From Octopus sinensis (Eukaryota): a DNA stretch of 64,000 nt. Position 1 is the first letter of the stretch, and each line of letters opens with the position of its first letter. The notes beneath the pieces were generated by a model. It worked only from the letters and a program-made list of their open reading frames with translations. It did no database searches and had not been told where the DNA came from. Both the position numbers and the translations under genes were made by a program. This document shows positions 3,150 through 40,760 of the stretch, one piece after another. The stretch is from the NCBI RefSeq assembly GCF_006345805.1, contig NC_042999.1, positions 168,950,001 through 169,014,000 of the forward strand, read 5' to 3'.

Positions 3150-3248
3150 TTCCTTGTCTTTTCTGATGAGAAGGCGGCATAATGCACCCCTTATTCCTTC
3201 GGAATTAGGAATATGCAGTCTTCGAAACGTATGTCAAGAATAAAGGAA
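3150..3248 (+). ncRNA. Type I hammerhead ribozyme, intact core
   Basis: CTGATGA 3163-3169; stem II GAAGGC/GTCTTC; GAAA 3224-3227; stem III AC-GTAT-GT; GUC site ending 3235; stem I TTTT/AAGA plus TTCCTT/AAGGAA. Confidence 0.8.
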
Positions 3249-27995: not shown

Positions 27996-28029
27996 ATGTC
28001 TGGGCAGTACGGACCCGTTCTACCTCCAG
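27996..28029 (+). CDS. GPALPP1: GPALPP1 exon 1 (MSGQYGPVLPPG)
   Basis: GPxLPP motif; GT donor at 28030 in phase 1 joins exon 2 to give GPVLPPGFK, like vertebrate GPALPPGFK. Confidence 0.85.
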
Positions 28030-33914: not shown

Positions 33915-34606
33915 GTTTTAAACGGAGTCATGTTAATGACAATATCCTAACATCATCTGAGGGAAATGTTTCATCTGAAGATAATTTACCTACCTGTTCC
34001 AATAACACATCAAACTCTGGAGAATCTGACTTCATAGATAGTGAGAAGATGGCTCATCTTCCAAAAAAAGATACTAAAGTGTCAAGTTCTTGGCAGCAGA
34101 TTTCGTCAGGTGATTACAGAAGTGCCTGTCAAAAGACACCGGTATCCTCTCTGTCACAGAAAGAAGATAATATCGTGGTCGGACCCATAGTTCGAAGCTC
34201 ACAAAAGAGTAAATTGTCAACATATAATGTTGAAGAAAGTTCATCAACGCCTCTTAAAGAGCACAAAATAATTGGCCCACAGCTTTCTAATATGAACACT
34301 ATTGAAACGAAAGCTTCTACATGCTCCTCACCTGACACTTTCAACAATGAACCTTTTCCTGATGCAAACCAAAGCAGGTGTGCCAGTTCATATGATGTTT
34401 TTGGACCAGCATTACCCCCTGATTTAATCAAGGACAAAGCAAAAGATAATTGTTCAGTAAGTGAGAAACCATCAACTTTAATCGAAGATTTTTCCTTAAT
34501 TGGCCCTCTTCCTTCTGAAATGTTCCAACAAGGAATGAAAGATGAATCGATATCAGATGATATTGAAAAAAGATCTTTGGACATGAAAGACAAACTCACA
34601 AAGAAG
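33915..34606 (+). CDS. GPALPP1: GPALPP1 exon 2 (low complexity, FGPALPP and IGPLP motifs)
   Basis: CAG acceptor ends 33914; frame open throughout; GTACAG donor at 34607. Confidence 0.9.
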
Positions 34607-35106
34607 GTACAGATCTTTTTTCTTTCTACTTTCATTATACTCTATCCTTTGCTTTGGCATGGTATCATGTTTTGTTTTTACCTCCTGTTTTTTTATCTCA
34701 GTTATTATTGTTTTTTTTTTGTCTCTAGCTCCAGTTATTTTTGTACAAACAATTTGGAATGGCTTTTGCATACAAAACCTGTTCTAGCAATAGGCTTTCT
34801 GGTGACTTAAGATTTGGTACTAAAAACAAACATATATTCAAATATTGACTTTGTATATCTGCATTTGAATATAGATATGTGTATGTTTCTATATTGTAAT
34901 ATTCTAATATATTGTTTTGAACAACTGTAACCTTGAATATAGAACATATGTATGTATATTGCTGTATATTATTATTATATATATGTATAGGAGTATGGGT
35001 ATATGCACTCATATGTATGTGTATATTATATATTATGGGTATGTACCCACTCTTGTATGGGTGTACCTCCTCTGATTTTCATATTTAATTTAGTTTGTTC
35101 TTCATA

Positions 35107-35233
35107 ATCTCTGAAGAGGCCTTGGGATATTTTTGTAAGTGTCTCATTTATAACTACATATTAACCTATCACACATGGCTAATATGAGCATAATGAGATA
35201 CCCATATCTGCATGGCCGAAACAGCTGTAAGAT
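35107..35233 (+). ncRNA. Type I hammerhead ribozyme with long stem II, in GPALPP1 intron 2
   Basis: ATCT-CTGAAGA-GGCC-(92 nt)-GGCC-GAAA-C-AGCT-G-TA-AGAT; predicted cleavage after A35229. Confidence 0.78.
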
Positions 35234-35442
35234 GTAGTTTATATTTATATTTGTATTTATTTATATTCACTTATACATACTGTACTTATTGTATCTTATT
35301 ACTCATTGATGTACATTGTTTTGTTCTATATTATTACGTTTGACCTTAATGTTCATATGTAGTGGTTTAATAAATTATGTGATTGGGTATTATCTGGTAG
35401 TTGATTATTGATTAAGATGTATTTCTCCATTTCCTTATTTTG

Positions 35443-35486
<44 letters not shown>

Positions 35487-35504
35487 TATATACGACCACA
35501 CACA

Positions 35505-35670
35505 AATATACGACAGGCTTCTTTCAGTTTCCGTCTACCAAATTTACTCACAAGGCTTTGGTCGGCCCGAGGCTATAGCAGAAGACACTTGCCCAAGGTG
35601 CCACGCAGTGGGACTGAACCCGGAACCATGTGGTTCGTAAGCAAGCTACTTACCACACAGCCACTCCTAC
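35505..35670 (-). mobile_element. SINE family A head fragment
   Basis: Matches the 5' half of other copies. Confidence 0.8.
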
Positions 35671-36099
35671 GCTTAAAAACAGGCAACTTCATGTGGGTTT
35701 GAATTCAGCGACACTGGAAAAAGCCTACGAGAAGATTTGTTCCTGTACCGACACCCTACCACTTCTGTCAGACCACCCTCCTCCTTTATTTTATTATAAA
35801 TGTAAAACAACAGCATGAAAGAATCAACGTAAGCTTAAATAGTAAACCGCAATAGGGGAATTGCGATATGGTGAGGGTTCACTGTATATATATATATATA
35901 TCTGTACACATGAATGTGTATATGCACGCGTGAATATATCTATAAATATATTGTCATTATAAAGATGAAATTGTCTATAAACATATTATATAAATATATT
36001 ATTATTATAAGATGAGGTGCTCAGAAAAAGGAGAATATACTAAAAAATAATAATTTTGTTGGCTGAAAAAGGAAAAAGTACTTACCTTCAGTTCGTAAC

Positions 36100-36728
36100 A
36101 GGAAAGAAAAATAGATAAAACAATTCAAACCTCTGATCTACATAGTTTCATCAATCAATAATGGTCCAAGCATAATGAACCAGCACAAACCACATCAAAA
36201 GCTGAATGGAATCAAAAAATGGTCATGCTGTCAATTTGGTGGGATTACAGAGGTGTTGTGTATTTTGAGCTGCTTTTAAGGAACCAAACGATCAATTCAG
36301 ATGTTTGCTGTCAACAACTAATGAAAGTGGAAGAAGCAATCATAAAAAATGGCCAGAATTGGCAAATTATAAAGGAATTGCATTACATCATGACAATGCT
36401 AGACCACACATGCCTTTGCTAACTTGTGAAAAATTATTGAAGCTTGGTTGGGAAGTGATGTCATATCCACCATCAAATTACCATTTATTTAGAAGTTTGC
36501 AAAATTTTTCTATGATGATGACCTGAAATCACACTTGCTTCAGTTTTTGGCTGATAAAGACCAGACGTTCTATGAGCACGGATTCATGAAGTTACCAGAA
36601 AGATAGCAAAAGGTCGTCAAACAAAATGGAAAACATATAATTAAATGAAGTTCATTCTTTGTATGAAAAAAAACAATGACTTTTAATTCACACTAAAAAA
36701 TTGAAATTACTTTCTTGCCAACCCAATA
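36100..36728 (+). mobile_element. Mariner transposase remnant with right TIR
   Basis: [17 protein letters not shown]; LHHDNARPH; TIR ...TTACTTTCTTGCCAACCCAATA. Confidence 0.85.
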
Positions 36729-37789
36729 TATATATATGTGTGTGTATGGGGAAAGTAGGGAGAAAAAGCGCGAAAATGCACATTGAATATTAAAAAAATA
36801 AAGGCTTTTTTATGAAAAGTAGTGATAAATAAATACAATTAGATGAACTGAGGTAGAATTAAGAGGAATTAAATTCATTATTTTGAATTGTTAAAGAGAT
36901 TCAAAGTCAAACTGGTATCGTCATTGCTGTTCACTGGCTTTGAATGCACACTGATTATCAAATGGTGTCGGGTCTACTAGTCCCTGAGTAAAAAGATTGT
37001 GTAAGGGAGGTAAGTAGTTCTGGATGTGGTGCAATTAGGATCAATATAATACTGTAATATGAATGGTATAAGGAATTTATGGATGTTAGTGGCATTATTG
37101 GTAAGGTTAGTAGTGTTCTGTGGTATGTAGTGTTCATGTTGTGGATGATATTTATTGATGAAAGTTGCTTCTTTATTCATTCTTTGCTGTACTGAGGTGT
37201 TCTGTGAATATTGATAGAAGAGGAAAATTAGGAAATTCGGATTAAGATTCCTAGCACACCTATCTATGTGTTCACTGACCTGTATCTGTCTATTGTGGGT
37301 GGCGGATTTGCACCATCCTCTTATCTATACACCTCCTACCTCATCATAACCCAATTTGTCTCTTGCCTTGTTTTTTATCTCTTCTCCAGTGGGTCACAGT
37401 ATTTTACTGACCTTCTTTCTGTGTGCTTTCTGATAGCTCTAACCCCTTCCCTACACCAATGCTTTCTCTTTTGTCATTACTTAAACTACTTACTTAATCC
37501 ATGTCCTTGTCACTGTCCACCCAATACATTCCATCACATCCTTCCTACTCCCATTGGTTAACATATTTCTCAGGTATTTATAAATGCTACTTCCTGAGGG
37601 TTCTTCATATTTCTACATTCCATCTGAAGATGAACGTTTCATTTTCAGACAAATTCTTTTATTGCTTTTTTTAATAGTATTTTTAATGCTGATTATGGAA
37701 ATAAATTTTGTTCTTATCTATTTCCAATATTTTACTTGAAATTTTATTTTGAAGATACCATTTTCAGCAAAAACAAGATAACTCGTCTC

Positions 37790-38005
37790 TCTCTTTTACC
37801 CTTTTATTTGTTTTAGTCATTTGACTGCGGCCATGCTGGAGCACTGCCTTTAGTCAAACAAATCAACCCCAGAACTTATTCTTTGTAAGTCTAGTACTTA
37901 TTCTATCGGTCTCTTTTGCTGAACCGCTAAGTTATGGGGACATAAACTCCAGCATCAGTTATCAACTGATGGTGGGGGGACAAACTCAGACACAAACATA
38001 CACGC

Positions 38006-38092
<87 letters not shown>

Positions 38093-38100
38093 GTTTCTTT
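37790..38100 (-). mobile_element. SINE family A, head missing
   Basis: Similarity to other copies. Confidence 0.75.
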
Positions 38101-38104
38101 CAAT

Positions 38105-39125
38105 TTTGCCCTTTTCAGCTCTTCAGGCACTTTCTTTCTATTCAAACAGAGTGCTATAAATATCAGTGTCGTGACTAACCAGAGTATCAGCTAATTGCAG
38201 ACTAGTGTAAAAGTTATGCACAGTAACACAATAACCTTTACCAAGTAAAGGCTTCATCAAAGACAACACAACATGAGAACTCTTGGGATATTCACTATAT
38301 TCTGAATCAAACTGTGTTCCTTTGCCAACATAAATGATTACTCTATAGACATATCCAGTCTTTGCTTCACACAAAAAAAAATTCTTCACTCCAAACCTCC
38401 TACCTTTTAGAGGTATGCACTGAATCCATCCTAACCATCCCTTGAACAGCATAAGGCTTTCGTCTATTGATAAATCTTGGTTAGGGGTATAATACTTCAT
38501 AAAGTTCTCACTAAACATCATAAACTTTATACAGTTTTAGGTTGGGATGTGTTTCTGCATCAAAAGTTTCACTGTTCACAAAATGAAGAAGACACTGTTT
38601 TATCTTATTATCGTGTTTCAAACTGATCAGCTTCCAAAAAATTGGTCTTTCAAGCAGTTCATCTTTCGACCAGTTCATTTCTTGATCTGGCATTTTCACA
38701 ATACCCCCAAGCATTTCCAAGGTGAAAAACACACAAATTTCTGCCTTTGTTACAGGGTACTACATGCAATCTCTTTCTCCAGTTCAGCAAAGCAGTTAGT
38801 TTCGTCCACAACTCAATCAGTAATTCTGTTGTCACAAAAAAAGACTAAAAAAATCCAAAGGAGTCATATCAGCTGTGTCTTGATCAATTGATACTCTAGG
38901 ATTTCCAGTGAATGGGAAGTGTAGTGGTGGAGGGAGCATGCATTCTTCTGACATCACATGTCAGCACCAAATTCGTCCATCTTCCTCCTCCTCCTCCTCC
39001 TCCTCCTCACTTAAGAGAGAATAGCCATTATCAGACAAGCTTGCACTCTCATCTGATGTACCCAAGCTTCTAATAGAAGGTTCATACTCATTGTCATCTT
39101 CTGAGCTCAACATCCAGGCATAATT
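38105..39125 (-). mobile_element. piggyBac (PGBD4-like) transposase remnant
   Basis: YTPNQDLSIDESLMLFKG...PLK..RFGVK; NFYTS. Confidence 0.85.
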
Positions 39126-40195
39126 TGTAAAAAAAAAAACAGAAAAAACAAGAAATGCTGAGAATTGACTGAGAATTAGATGAATTCATTGAGGCTTATT
39201 TTCTACAGTCAGATGCCCTTCCTGTCACCAATCCTCACCTGTTTCCAAATGAGGAATTGTTTCCCTATGGCTAGACAGACATTTTTCACAGAAGTCTGAA
39301 AGCAAAGGACAGTGCTGCTCATCAATAACTATTACATGATGTCGAGTCAAGAAAGCTCAAATACAGTCATGCGCGTGCGTGTGCACACACATACATGGTG
39401 GCCTTTTTCCACTTTTCATCTTCCATATCCATTCACAAGTCTTTTTTCAGCTTGTGTCTAAAGTAGAAGACATTCGCTGAAGGTACCATGCAATGGAAAA
39501 TGAACTGCCCCACCACCCAACCTGAAAGTAATACAAAATTAAGCATAGCTTTTTTTATTGTTGCACAATTCAACTGTGGATCCGAGATTTGTGTTCAACA
39601 GTGGCTCATACACGTTGCAGTATTACTATATCAAGTAGTCCTTTTTTGAATGAAGGAAGTCTGCCTGTGCAGATTAAATGACCTCAGTCAATAAAAGTGT
39701 TACTCTCACTTTTACCTTCAGTAGAAATTTCGCATACGTGTGTGTAGAAGTGAGTGAACAAAAGAAAGTAGAACTGAATACACTTGGTTGGAGTTATATG
39801 TAATTAATAATAATTTGACTCAGCTCCACAAGACTTAAAGATGGGTGTTTAGGACATATCTGTCTCAACAGATGTTTGAAAGTAAAGTTTGCATTCATGA
39901 AAGTTCAAGTCATGAAACATATATATAGATTATAAATTTCCATGAGAAGATGTATCAAAATGTTTTACAACAAACAATTACATGTAACTTAGAAACCCAA
40001 TACTGAAATTATGTGATTAATGTAAAATGCTTTTCTACTTTCTAGTTAACCGTTTTAAAAAATCCATTGAGTAATATAACATTTAATATTTAAAAGGATT
40101 TTTTCAAATAACTGTTGTGTACACACACGCATATTAACAAAGAGAATGGAATTTATTTATACATATATAATATATATCCATCCTGTCACTTTTAG

Positions 40196-40366
40196 GTAGA
40201 TGGCGAAGTTTTAAGCCGAGAAACATGGATGTTGGAGCTGCCTCCAGAGATAGGCCCTGGTCTTGGCCTTGTTGCAAGAACATTTAGGCCATCAAAGAGT
40301 ATATGCCAGTCTAAGGACAGTTCTGTGTGGACTGATACTCCTACTGACCAAGCCAAGAAGCAAAAG
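40196..40366 (+). CDS. GPALPP1: GPALPP1 exon 3 (RETWMLELPP...RTF...SVWTDTP)
   Basis: Conserved WM.ELPP and WTDTP motifs; TTTTAG acceptor, GTATTT donor. Confidence 0.93.
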
Positions 40367-40470
40367 GTATTTCACTATTCTCATTATATTAAGCAAAATA
40401 CTTATAACACAGTTAATTCATTCAGCTTTGATTTTTATTTTCAGCCCTATTATATCACTGATCTTTGGAT

Positions 40471-40760
40471 TCATCATCATCATCATCATCATCATTTAGC
40501 ATCCGCTTTCCATGCTGGCATGGGTTGGACGGGTCAACTGGGGTCTGTGAAGCCGGAAGGCTTCATCAGGCCCAGTCAGATCTGGCAGTGTTTCTACGGC
40601 TGGATGCCCTTCCTAACGCCAATCACTCCGCGAGTGTAGTGGGTGTTTTTCACGTGCCACCTGCACAGGTGCCAGACAGAGCTGGCAAACGGCCACGAAC
40701 AGATGGTGCTTTTACGTGTCACCGGCACGGGGGCCAACCGAGGCTGGCAACGGACACGAT
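40471..40760 (-). mobile_element. SINE family D
   Basis: Reverse complement of 16450-16797. Confidence 0.8.

What the first reader, a model, noticed from the sequence alone, without database searches (positions are those of the whole stretch)
35107..35233. Sense-strand hammerhead in GPALPP1 intron 2, 500 nt after the donor
Intact core CTGAAGA/GAAA/GUA, palindromic stem III ACAGCTGT, and an unusually long structured stem II insert (GTGTCTCATT pairs with AATGAGATAC). It is transcribed as part of the pre-mRNA, so it could cleave it or be silent unless paired with a second copy in trans. Function is inferred only.
Basis: partly seen in the sequence, partly recalled or inferred. Interest (0 to 1): 0.7.

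Follow-up and report, generated by a model that had tools for sequence, protein, structure and literature searches.

The report
Penelope retroelement tail with long-stem hammerhead
The self-cutting-RNA (hammerhead) motif is really there, but it is the tail of a truncated jumping gene with at least 1,455 look-alike motifs in this genome, likely silent in the host intron; its one unusual trait is a long hairpin arm that the family has kept.

Summary
The motif is real: a type I hammerhead core at 35107-35233, sense strand, 500 nt into a spliced intron of a GPALPP1-like gene. It is not a feature of that gene. It lies in a 603-bp, 5'-truncated terminal-repeat (pLTR) fragment (34843-35445) of a Penelope-like retroelement that ends in (TA)n. 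The genome holds 1,455 core-intact motifs of this family. Longer copies link it to an RT + GIY-YIG ORF with the Hydra-clade motifs. This copy most likely does not cleave: 2-bp stem III, 4-bp stem I, a 6-bp hairpin over the core, no partner in the gene; 0 of 16 young ORF-bearing copies start at the cut site. What differs from published Hydra hammerheads (loop 2 of 3-10 nt) is an 85-105 nt stem II rod kept across subfamilies with compensatory changes, in a family with a very young subfamily that has an intact ORF. This scan noted intronic Penelope hammerhead relics before in other genomes, not this sequence. Cleavage and insertion polymorphism are untested. Verdict: new variant of a known kind, interest 0.3.

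The parts
27996..28029 (+). First coding exon of the GPALPP1-like host gene (MSGQYGPVLPP, phase-1 donor)
   Evidence: inferred from sequence and frame; the spliced contigs carry 25-58 nt upstream of exon 2 that were not mapped
33915..34606 (+). Coding exon 2 of the host gene
   Evidence: covered by spliced contigs in 4 of 4 runs; open frame
34607..40195 (+). Host intron 2 (GT..AG, 5,589 nt) that holds the insertion
   Evidence: joint in 3 of 4 runs
34843..35445 (+). 5'-truncated 3'-terminal (pLTR) fragment of a Hydra-clade Penelope-like element, ending at the shorter of the family's two 3' ends
   Evidence: 92% identical to the end of ORF-bearing copy L082
34833..34843 (.). 11-bp inverted copy of 34863-34873 at the 5' junction; possibly a tiny fold-back, possibly chance in AT-rich DNA
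   Evidence: sequence shown; not tested further
35099..35104 (+). TCTTCA, predicted to pair with TGAAGA 35112-35117 and mask the catalytic core
   Evidence: minimum-energy fold in three flank lengths; shorter form
35107..35233 (+). Type I hammerhead motif: stem I ATCT/AGAT, CUGAAGA, stem II, GAAA, palindromic stem III, GUA triplet (predicted cut after 35229)
35118..35217 (+). 100-nt stem II rod (GGCC/GGCC base plus 92-nt interrupted hairpin), conserved in structure across subfamilies
35221..35228 (+). ACAGCTGT palindrome: 2 bp plus tetraloop as monomer (+2.4 kcal/mol), 8-bp duplex as dimer (-11.1 kcal/mol)
35443..35486 (.). (TA)n then (CA)n microsatellite; the (TA)n is the likely insertion target
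   Evidence: family copies end in TA-rich runs
40196..40367 (+). Coding exon 3 of the host gene (start of DUF3752)

Best explanation
This is the hammerhead motif in the terminal repeat of a 5'-truncated copy of a Hydra-clade Penelope-like retrotransposon lying in intron 2 of a GPALPP1-like gene, and it is likely an inert passenger of the pre-mRNA. Shown: the repeat family, its truncated and inverted copies, its two 3' ends at (TA)n, and its link to an RT + GIY-YIG ORF. Inferred mechanism: the element's endonuclease nicked the (TA)n run, reverse transcription started about 215 nt downstream of the hammerhead on an uncleaved RNA, and it stopped after about 600 nt. The motif and its long stem II were under selection in the source elements, not at this locus. 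In the element the ribozyme most likely cleaves only conditionally (as a dimer through ACAGCUGU in tandem transcripts, or with help from the element's protein). In the host pre-mRNA it would rarely fold into the active form and would leave with the spliced intron.
For: Repeat: 40 of 40 scored full-length matches at 95-98% identity besides itself counted in; 169 motifs of the long U4 form and 1,455 of all forms, reversed-pattern control 0. Anatomy: ragged 5' ends; an inverted piece at 12 of 26 distinct sites; of 30 copies 17 end at the short 3' end, 11 run on to a second end about 170 nt further, 2 were not parsed, and the 12 long copies printed all end in TA-rich runs. ORF link within single copies: L051 and L082 carry RT and GIY-YIG pieces about 2.2 kb upstream of the same motif. 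L078 and L079 are pLTR-ORF-pLTR with a 960-codon open frame and the motif in both repeats. P0001 has RWR, DKT, YRDD, CxCx5C, VY..YIG, CxxC..E, N..CxH and no CX2-5CxxC, matching the Hydra description. Silence: active monomer fold has computed probability 1e-6 to 1e-8 here against 1e-4 to 2e-5 in two sister subfamilies; no second copy of this family in the window, which spans the gene; 0 of 16 young ORF-bearing copies begin at the cut site; single PLE hammerheads did not cleave in vitro (PMC4209133); the Anolis PLE hammerhead needs the element's protein and insertion uses uncleaved RNA (PMC11167929). Youth: 1 private substitution in about 390 aligned positions. Copies decay: 4 of 37 motifs in loci fetched by ORF or UTR have a broken core (counted by eye).
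Against: No cleavage assay and no raw RNA reads; the runs laid are contigs and only guessed to be RNA. The folding model ignores tertiary contacts and proteins and I had no known-active control, so only the relative values mean much. This copy has the canonical core (U4, G10.1-C11.1), while 19 of its 29 nearest copies have G-U at 10.1-11.1. Private changes are lower in the core (1 in 360 cells) than elsewhere (0.67-0.92%); about 2.5 were expected, so this is weak either way, and those copies were picked by similarity. Whether the individuals with spliced contigs carry the insertion is unknown. No tree with reference PLE clades was built; the clade call rests on motifs. Pfam finds no RT or GIY-YIG family in P0001 and only sub-threshold GIY-YIG hits in two fragments.
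Confidence: 0.85

Rival explanations
1. Same origin, but this copy cleaves the pre-mRNA at a real rate, by pairing in trans with another family transcript or when the element's protein binds it, and lowers or alters host mRNA output as a side effect.
For: Canonical core; identical palindrome in most subfamilies; 8-bp dimer duplex of -11.1 kcal/mol; family sequence is present in contigs of runs guessed to be RNA; a young subfamily with an intact ORF exists; protein-assisted cleavage is shown for another PLE.
Against: 4-bp A-U-rich stem I with pairing probability 0.004 or less; core masked by a 6-bp hairpin; no partner in cis; even dimers cleaved poorly in vitro; intron spliced in 3 of 4 runs.
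Confidence: 0.1
2. A domesticated intronic ribozyme regulating GPALPP1, like the conserved amniote intronic hammerheads (RECK, C10orf118).
For: Sense orientation in an intron and an intact core; such cases exist in amniotes.
Against: Young copy of a family with 1,455 motifs; the whole 603-bp fragment, not just the ribozyme, matches other copies at 88-96%; no stable stem III; the amniote motifs are conserved across species and cleave as monomers.
Confidence: 0.03
3. A non-autonomous retrozyme or satellite unit that spreads through small circular RNAs.
For: Type I motif with palindromic stem III in a short non-coding repeat; animal retrozymes are reported to derive from PLE pLTRs.
Against: Not a tandem array of 150-400-bp units; copies are nested 3' fragments of a 5.6-kb ORF-bearing element; the one same-strand pair seen (L089) is a 2.4-kb local duplication that includes flank.
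Confidence: 0.02

Closest known systems
Hydra-clade Penelope-like elements and their hammerheads (Craig et al. 2021, PMC8557442; includes Hydra-1_Obim from Octopus bimaculoides)
   Same: Single ORF with RT and C-terminal GIY-YIG; RW(K/R), DKT, CxCx5C, CxxC and CxH motifs; (TA)n targets; sense type I hammerhead near the 3' end with palindromic stem III (acag..ctgt in 4 listed families) and often an A at the cut site.
   Different: All 26 Hydra rows of their File S2 have loop 2 of 3-10 nt and stem II of 3-7 bp; here stem II plus loop is 85-105 nt. Their elements are mostly under 3 kb; this one has a 5.6-kb period, a 947-aa ORF with an Asn-rich middle and a 3' UTR over 2 kb. Hydra-1_Obim has a different hammerhead and, by eye, a homologous but different protein, so this is another family. 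16 of 36 aligned copies carry U4C.
[quoted passage not shown]
   Same: Short helix I, G10.1-C11.1, palindromic 15.2-16.2 region, mostly lone motifs in truncated copies, pairs on opposite strands 100-700 bp apart, expected dimer cleavage.
   Different: Their helix II is 6-8 bp with a bulged base at its start; here there is no bulge and the helix is a 25-30-bp interrupted rod.
Poseidon element of Anolis carolinensis (Frangieh et al. 2024, PMC11167929)
   Same: Two reverse-transcription start sites giving an optional tail, AT-rich targets, insertion from uncleaved RNA.
   Different: Its tail is 30-40 bp and lies inside the ORF start; here the tail is about 170 nt and both ends lie upstream of the ATG. 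Different clade.
Conserved amniote intronic hammerheads (RECK, C10orf118/CTCL, DTNB)
   Same: Type I motif in an intron.
   Different: Those are single-copy, conserved across species and self-cleave in vitro; this is a young copy of a repeat.

Membership tests
Type I hammerhead ribozyme | Conserved core CUGANGA / GAAA / UH around three helices, open helix I | tested here: met
Type I hammerhead ribozyme | Match to an Rfam hammerhead model | tested here: not met
   no hammerhead family at gathering score or E up to 10; the long stem II is the likely reason (inference)
Type I hammerhead ribozyme | Helices supported by covariation | tested here: inconclusive
   stem II rod supported; stem I has only 2 invariant pairs and its outer 2 pairs are broken in 11 of 36 rows; stem III does not vary
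Type I hammerhead ribozyme | Site-specific self-cleavage | not testable with these tools
   no assay; only contigs, no raw reads
Penelope-like element (EN+) | pLTR-ORF-pLTR partial tandem with hammerhead in the pLTRs | tested here: met
   L078, L079, L088; for sister subfamilies, 66% identical to this fragment's 3' half
Penelope-like element (EN+) | Single ORF with RT and C-terminal GIY-YIG endonuclease | tested here: met
   motifs in P0001; 79 homologs at E 1e-20 or better, many with PF26215; own-subfamily copy L082 80% identical in RT; Pfam support weak
Penelope-like element (EN+) | 5' truncation, inverted 5' pieces, optional 3' tail | tested here: met
Hydra clade of PLEs | RWK-like motif, DKT for DKG, CxCX5C linker, CxxC and CxH around conserved E and N | tested here: met
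   RWR 37, DKT 138, CNCRNKNKC 809, CSLCINE 907, CIH near the end of P0001 against the description
Hydra clade of PLEs | CCHH motif absent from the endonuclease | tested here: inconclusive
   by eye no two-cysteine pair inside the VY..YIG core; no alignment to reference ENs
Hydra clade of PLEs | Insertion into (TA)n | tested here: met
Hydra clade of PLEs | Short element (generally under 3 kb) | tested here: not met
   5.6-kb period; a general trait in the paper, not a strict criterion
Hydra clade of PLEs | Groups with Hydra RTs in a tree | not tested
   reference proteins were seen only in a paper's supplement
Neptune clade of PLEs | DKG motif and CX2-5CxxC linker | tested here: not met
   my first reading, dropped
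Non-LTR retrozyme | Short tandem non-coding units each with a hammerhead | tested here: not met
Domesticated intronic hammerhead | Fixed and conserved at the orthologous site across species | not tested
   no read or genome comparison of this site was obtained

The most novel reading that the evidence does not exclude
The family carries an unreported hammerhead architecture in which an 85-105 nt stem II rod is a selected domain that binds the element's own RT-endonuclease protein and makes cleavage conditional on it. Sense-strand intronic copies such as this one would then be latent cut sites in host pre-mRNAs that fire when the young, ORF-intact subfamily is expressed. The first half alone (a selected, unreported long-rod variant that standard descriptors and Rfam miss) I put near 0.6; the probability given is for the whole claim.
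Probability: 0.12. Interest if true: 0.65.

Novelty: new variant of a known kind. Interest (0 to 1): 0.3.

Why it matters
For the host gene it probably does not matter. For retroelement biology there are two points. First, hammerheads with a stem II of about 100 nt are missed by Rfam here and fall outside the short-loop descriptors used for PLEs (spacer 7-17 nt for the core search in PMC8557442), so some PLEs reported as lacking a hammerhead may carry this form; a second repeat family in the same window has a 54-nt stem II. Second, what the PLE hammerhead is for remains open. A family with a very young subfamily, an intact ORF, and natural variants of the core (U4/C4, GUA/GUC, G-C/G-U at 10.1-11.1) offers a ready comparison set.

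Tried and rejected
Rfam: no hammerhead match; the miRNA-family hits are microsatellite hairpins far under gathering score. Neptune clade: rejected on DKT and CxCx5C. Pfam and PDB searches with P0001 gave nothing useful. Cleavage footprint in insertions: looked for 5' ends at the cut site; 0 of 16 young copies (the 14 older ones of the 30 fetched could not be placed reliably). Constraint on the core after insertion: too few changes to decide. RNA evidence: no holder on record as RNA was listed, and contigs cannot show RNA ends, so no coverage-drop test. A constrained dimer fold crashed; only the 8-bp duplex energy was computed. Core conservation in alignment A1 is partly by construction, since 20 of its 36 rows came from a pattern or motif-containing search. 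Lunse et al. 2017 is not held.

Full report
Observation. A strict descriptor, written after seeing the motif, finds it once in the window and in 0 of 200 shuffles. Rfam does not recognise it. Spliced contigs join 34606 to 40196 in 3 of 4 runs laid (contigs, RNA status guessed), so the donor is at 34607, 500 nt upstream. Three exons read in one frame and the third hits DUF3752 weakly. The GPALPP1 name rests on the GPALPP-type motifs and on my recall that DUF3752 marks that gene.

It is a repeat. A 261-bp query gave 40 full or near-full matches among the 40 candidates scored, at 95-98% identity apart from itself. The shared stretch is about 34843-35445, followed by (TA)n. An exact pattern for the long U4 form counts 169 motifs and a wider one 1,455 (734 forward, 721 reverse), with 0 for the reversed control. 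Copies have ragged 5' ends, and 12 of 26 distinct sites carry an inverted piece. There are two 3' ends: of 30 copies 17 stop where this one does, 11 run about 170 nt further, 2 were not parsed; the 12 long copies printed all end in TA-rich runs.

What the repeat is. Walking upstream reached about 2.2 kb of AT-rich UTR and then a GIY-YIG endonuclease and RT pieces in the same copy (L051). Copy L082 holds most of the ORF in pieces (80% identical to P0001 in the RT part) and ends in a unit 92% identical to the window fragment. A protein search found sister copies L078 and L079 with a 960-codon open frame between two pLTRs, each with the motif. That subfamily is very young: 31 of 40 scored matches, the query's own place among them, are identical over all 201 bp. 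Its 947-aa protein has RWR, DKT, YRDD, CxCx5C, VY..YIG, CxxC..E and N..CxH, and lacks CX2-5CxxC. These are the features given for the Hydra clade, with (TA)n targeting. Of 79 homologs 71 have DKT/DKS and 5 DKG. Pfam and PDB gave no above-threshold hit, and no tree with reference clades was built.

The long stem II. In 36 copies chosen to span subfamilies, the named structure has 91% of cells paired and 11 of 30 pairs with a change on both sides; 0 of 500 shuffles reach this, and slid controls fall to 27-46% paired. RNAalifold finds the same rod unprompted, with 7 of 18 pairs changed on both sides. On a tree these reduce to about 6-7 independent switches once the poorly aligned outlier L124 is set aside; G-U cells outnumber A-C cells 52 to 18, which favours the sense RNA. 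The rod folds at z -1.8 to -7.9 in 8 of 8 copies tested, but the antisense strand folds about as well in 4 of them. Stem I is weak: only two pairs are invariant. The core varies by subfamily: U4C in 16 of 36 rows, GUC in 17 of 36, G-U at 10.1-11.1 in 7 of 36. U4C is reported to lower activity in vitro yet allow viroid infectivity (PMC3088659). In loci fetched by ORF or UTR, 33 of 37 full motifs keep the core (U4C allowed) and 4 are broken (counted by eye; two of these loci had also come up in the motif-containing search). This fits selection in source elements and decay in copies.

Would this copy cut? Probably not. As a monomer stem III is 2 bp with a tetraloop (+2.4 kcal/mol); as a dimer it is an 8-bp duplex (-11.1). 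A 6-bp hairpin (35099-35104 with 35112-35117) covers the core in the best fold at three flank lengths. The active fold has probability 1e-6 to 1e-8, against 1e-4 to 2e-5 for two sister subfamilies. The model lacks tertiary contacts and I had no active control, so this is relative evidence only. No second copy of the family lies in the window. Among 16 young ORF-bearing copies, 7 extend upstream past the cut site, 9 start 170-360 nt downstream of it and none starts at it, and this copy keeps 215 nt downstream of its intact site. So insertions were made from uncleaved (or religated) RNA. Published tests agree: a single PLE minimal hammerhead showed no cleavage and dimers little (PMC4209133); the Anolis one cleaves only with the element's protein and is not needed for insertion (PMC11167929). 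Against this reading: the copy has the fully canonical core, and private changes are somewhat rarer in the core than outside it (1 in 360 cells against 0.67-0.92%), though not decisively. The copy has one private substitution in about 390 positions compared, so it is young. Whether the site is polymorphic or shared with other species is untested.

Comparison and novelty. Hammerheads in PLE pLTRs, lone motifs in truncated copies and a Hydra family in Octopus are all published. This family is not Hydra-1_Obim (different motif; protein homologous by eye). All 26 Hydra rows in the published table have loop 2 of 3-10 nt; the longest in that table is 35 nt, in a spike-moss element flagged as deviant. 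I found no report of an 85-105 nt stem II in a PLE hammerhead in seven searches. That is limited: Lunse et al. 2017 is not held, the supplementary figures of PMC4209133 were not opened, bioRxiv supplements are closed, and repeat libraries could not be searched; the O. vulgaris annotation lists 31 recently active Penelope-like families without mentioning ribozymes. Earlier notes of this scan describe similar intronic Penelope hammerhead relics in other genomes; I read them after reaching this view and did not check them.

What I saw of each paper. PMC4209133 and PMC11167929: parts 1-2 of 4 of the text. bioRxiv 2021.04.23.441226: passages and section 11. PMC8557442: passages, supplement part 2 of 59 and search hits. 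bioRxiv 10.64898/2026.07.22.740005: part 1 of 5. PMC7229834, PMC6765202, PMC6155905, PMC3088659, PMC13725137, PMC13282606: passages. Lunse et al. 2017: nothing, only as cited in PMC6765202.

Verdict. Observation confirmed, interpretation partly supported. A young, truncated Hydra-clade Penelope-like insertion whose hammerhead is likely inert in the host intron (0.85). New variant of a known kind on account of the conserved long stem II. Interest 0.3.

Noticed in passing
window 3159-3239 (+): A second type I hammerhead-like motif (CTGATGA, 6-bp stem II base with a 42-nt hairpin insert, GAAA, near-palindrome ACGTATGT, GUC) in a different repeat family: 40 scored matches at 95-97%, many with inverted partners, a (TA)n run downstream. 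Likely another PLE family with a lengthened stem II; no ORF was sought.
   Followed up: partly
L078 (G000:C26) and L079 (G000:C4): Full pLTR-ORF-pLTR copies with a 960-codon open frame; 31 scored matches identical over 201 bp, so the subfamily spread very recently.
   Followed up: yes
L172, L180, L183, L186, L191, L192: Copies in which the 5' UTR and ORF start appear joined directly to the last 100 nt of the pLTR: short internally deleted forms lacking most of the ORF and the hammerhead at that junction.
   Followed up: no
L042-L050, L084, L090-L092, L144-L159: Whole subfamilies carry U4C (CCGAAGA) in the catalytic core; the state changes at least twice on the tree.
   Followed up: partly
window 34985-35060: A strong hairpin just upstream of the hammerhead inside the pLTR fragment; conservation not examined.
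   Followed up: no
L089 (G000:C10): Two same-strand motifs 2,393 bp apart from a local duplication that includes flank: a natural cis-dimer candidate.
   Followed up: no
P0001 residues 500-810: Asn-rich (21%) region between RT and endonuclease, longer than in most homologs of about 700 aa.
   Followed up: no
window 35500-35672, 37800-37950, 40500-40650: Very abundant short repeats (extreme contig depth), probably SINE-like.
   Followed up: no
window 38138-38536 (-): Open frame that looks like a piggyBac-type transposase fragment (recalled resemblance).
   Followed up: no
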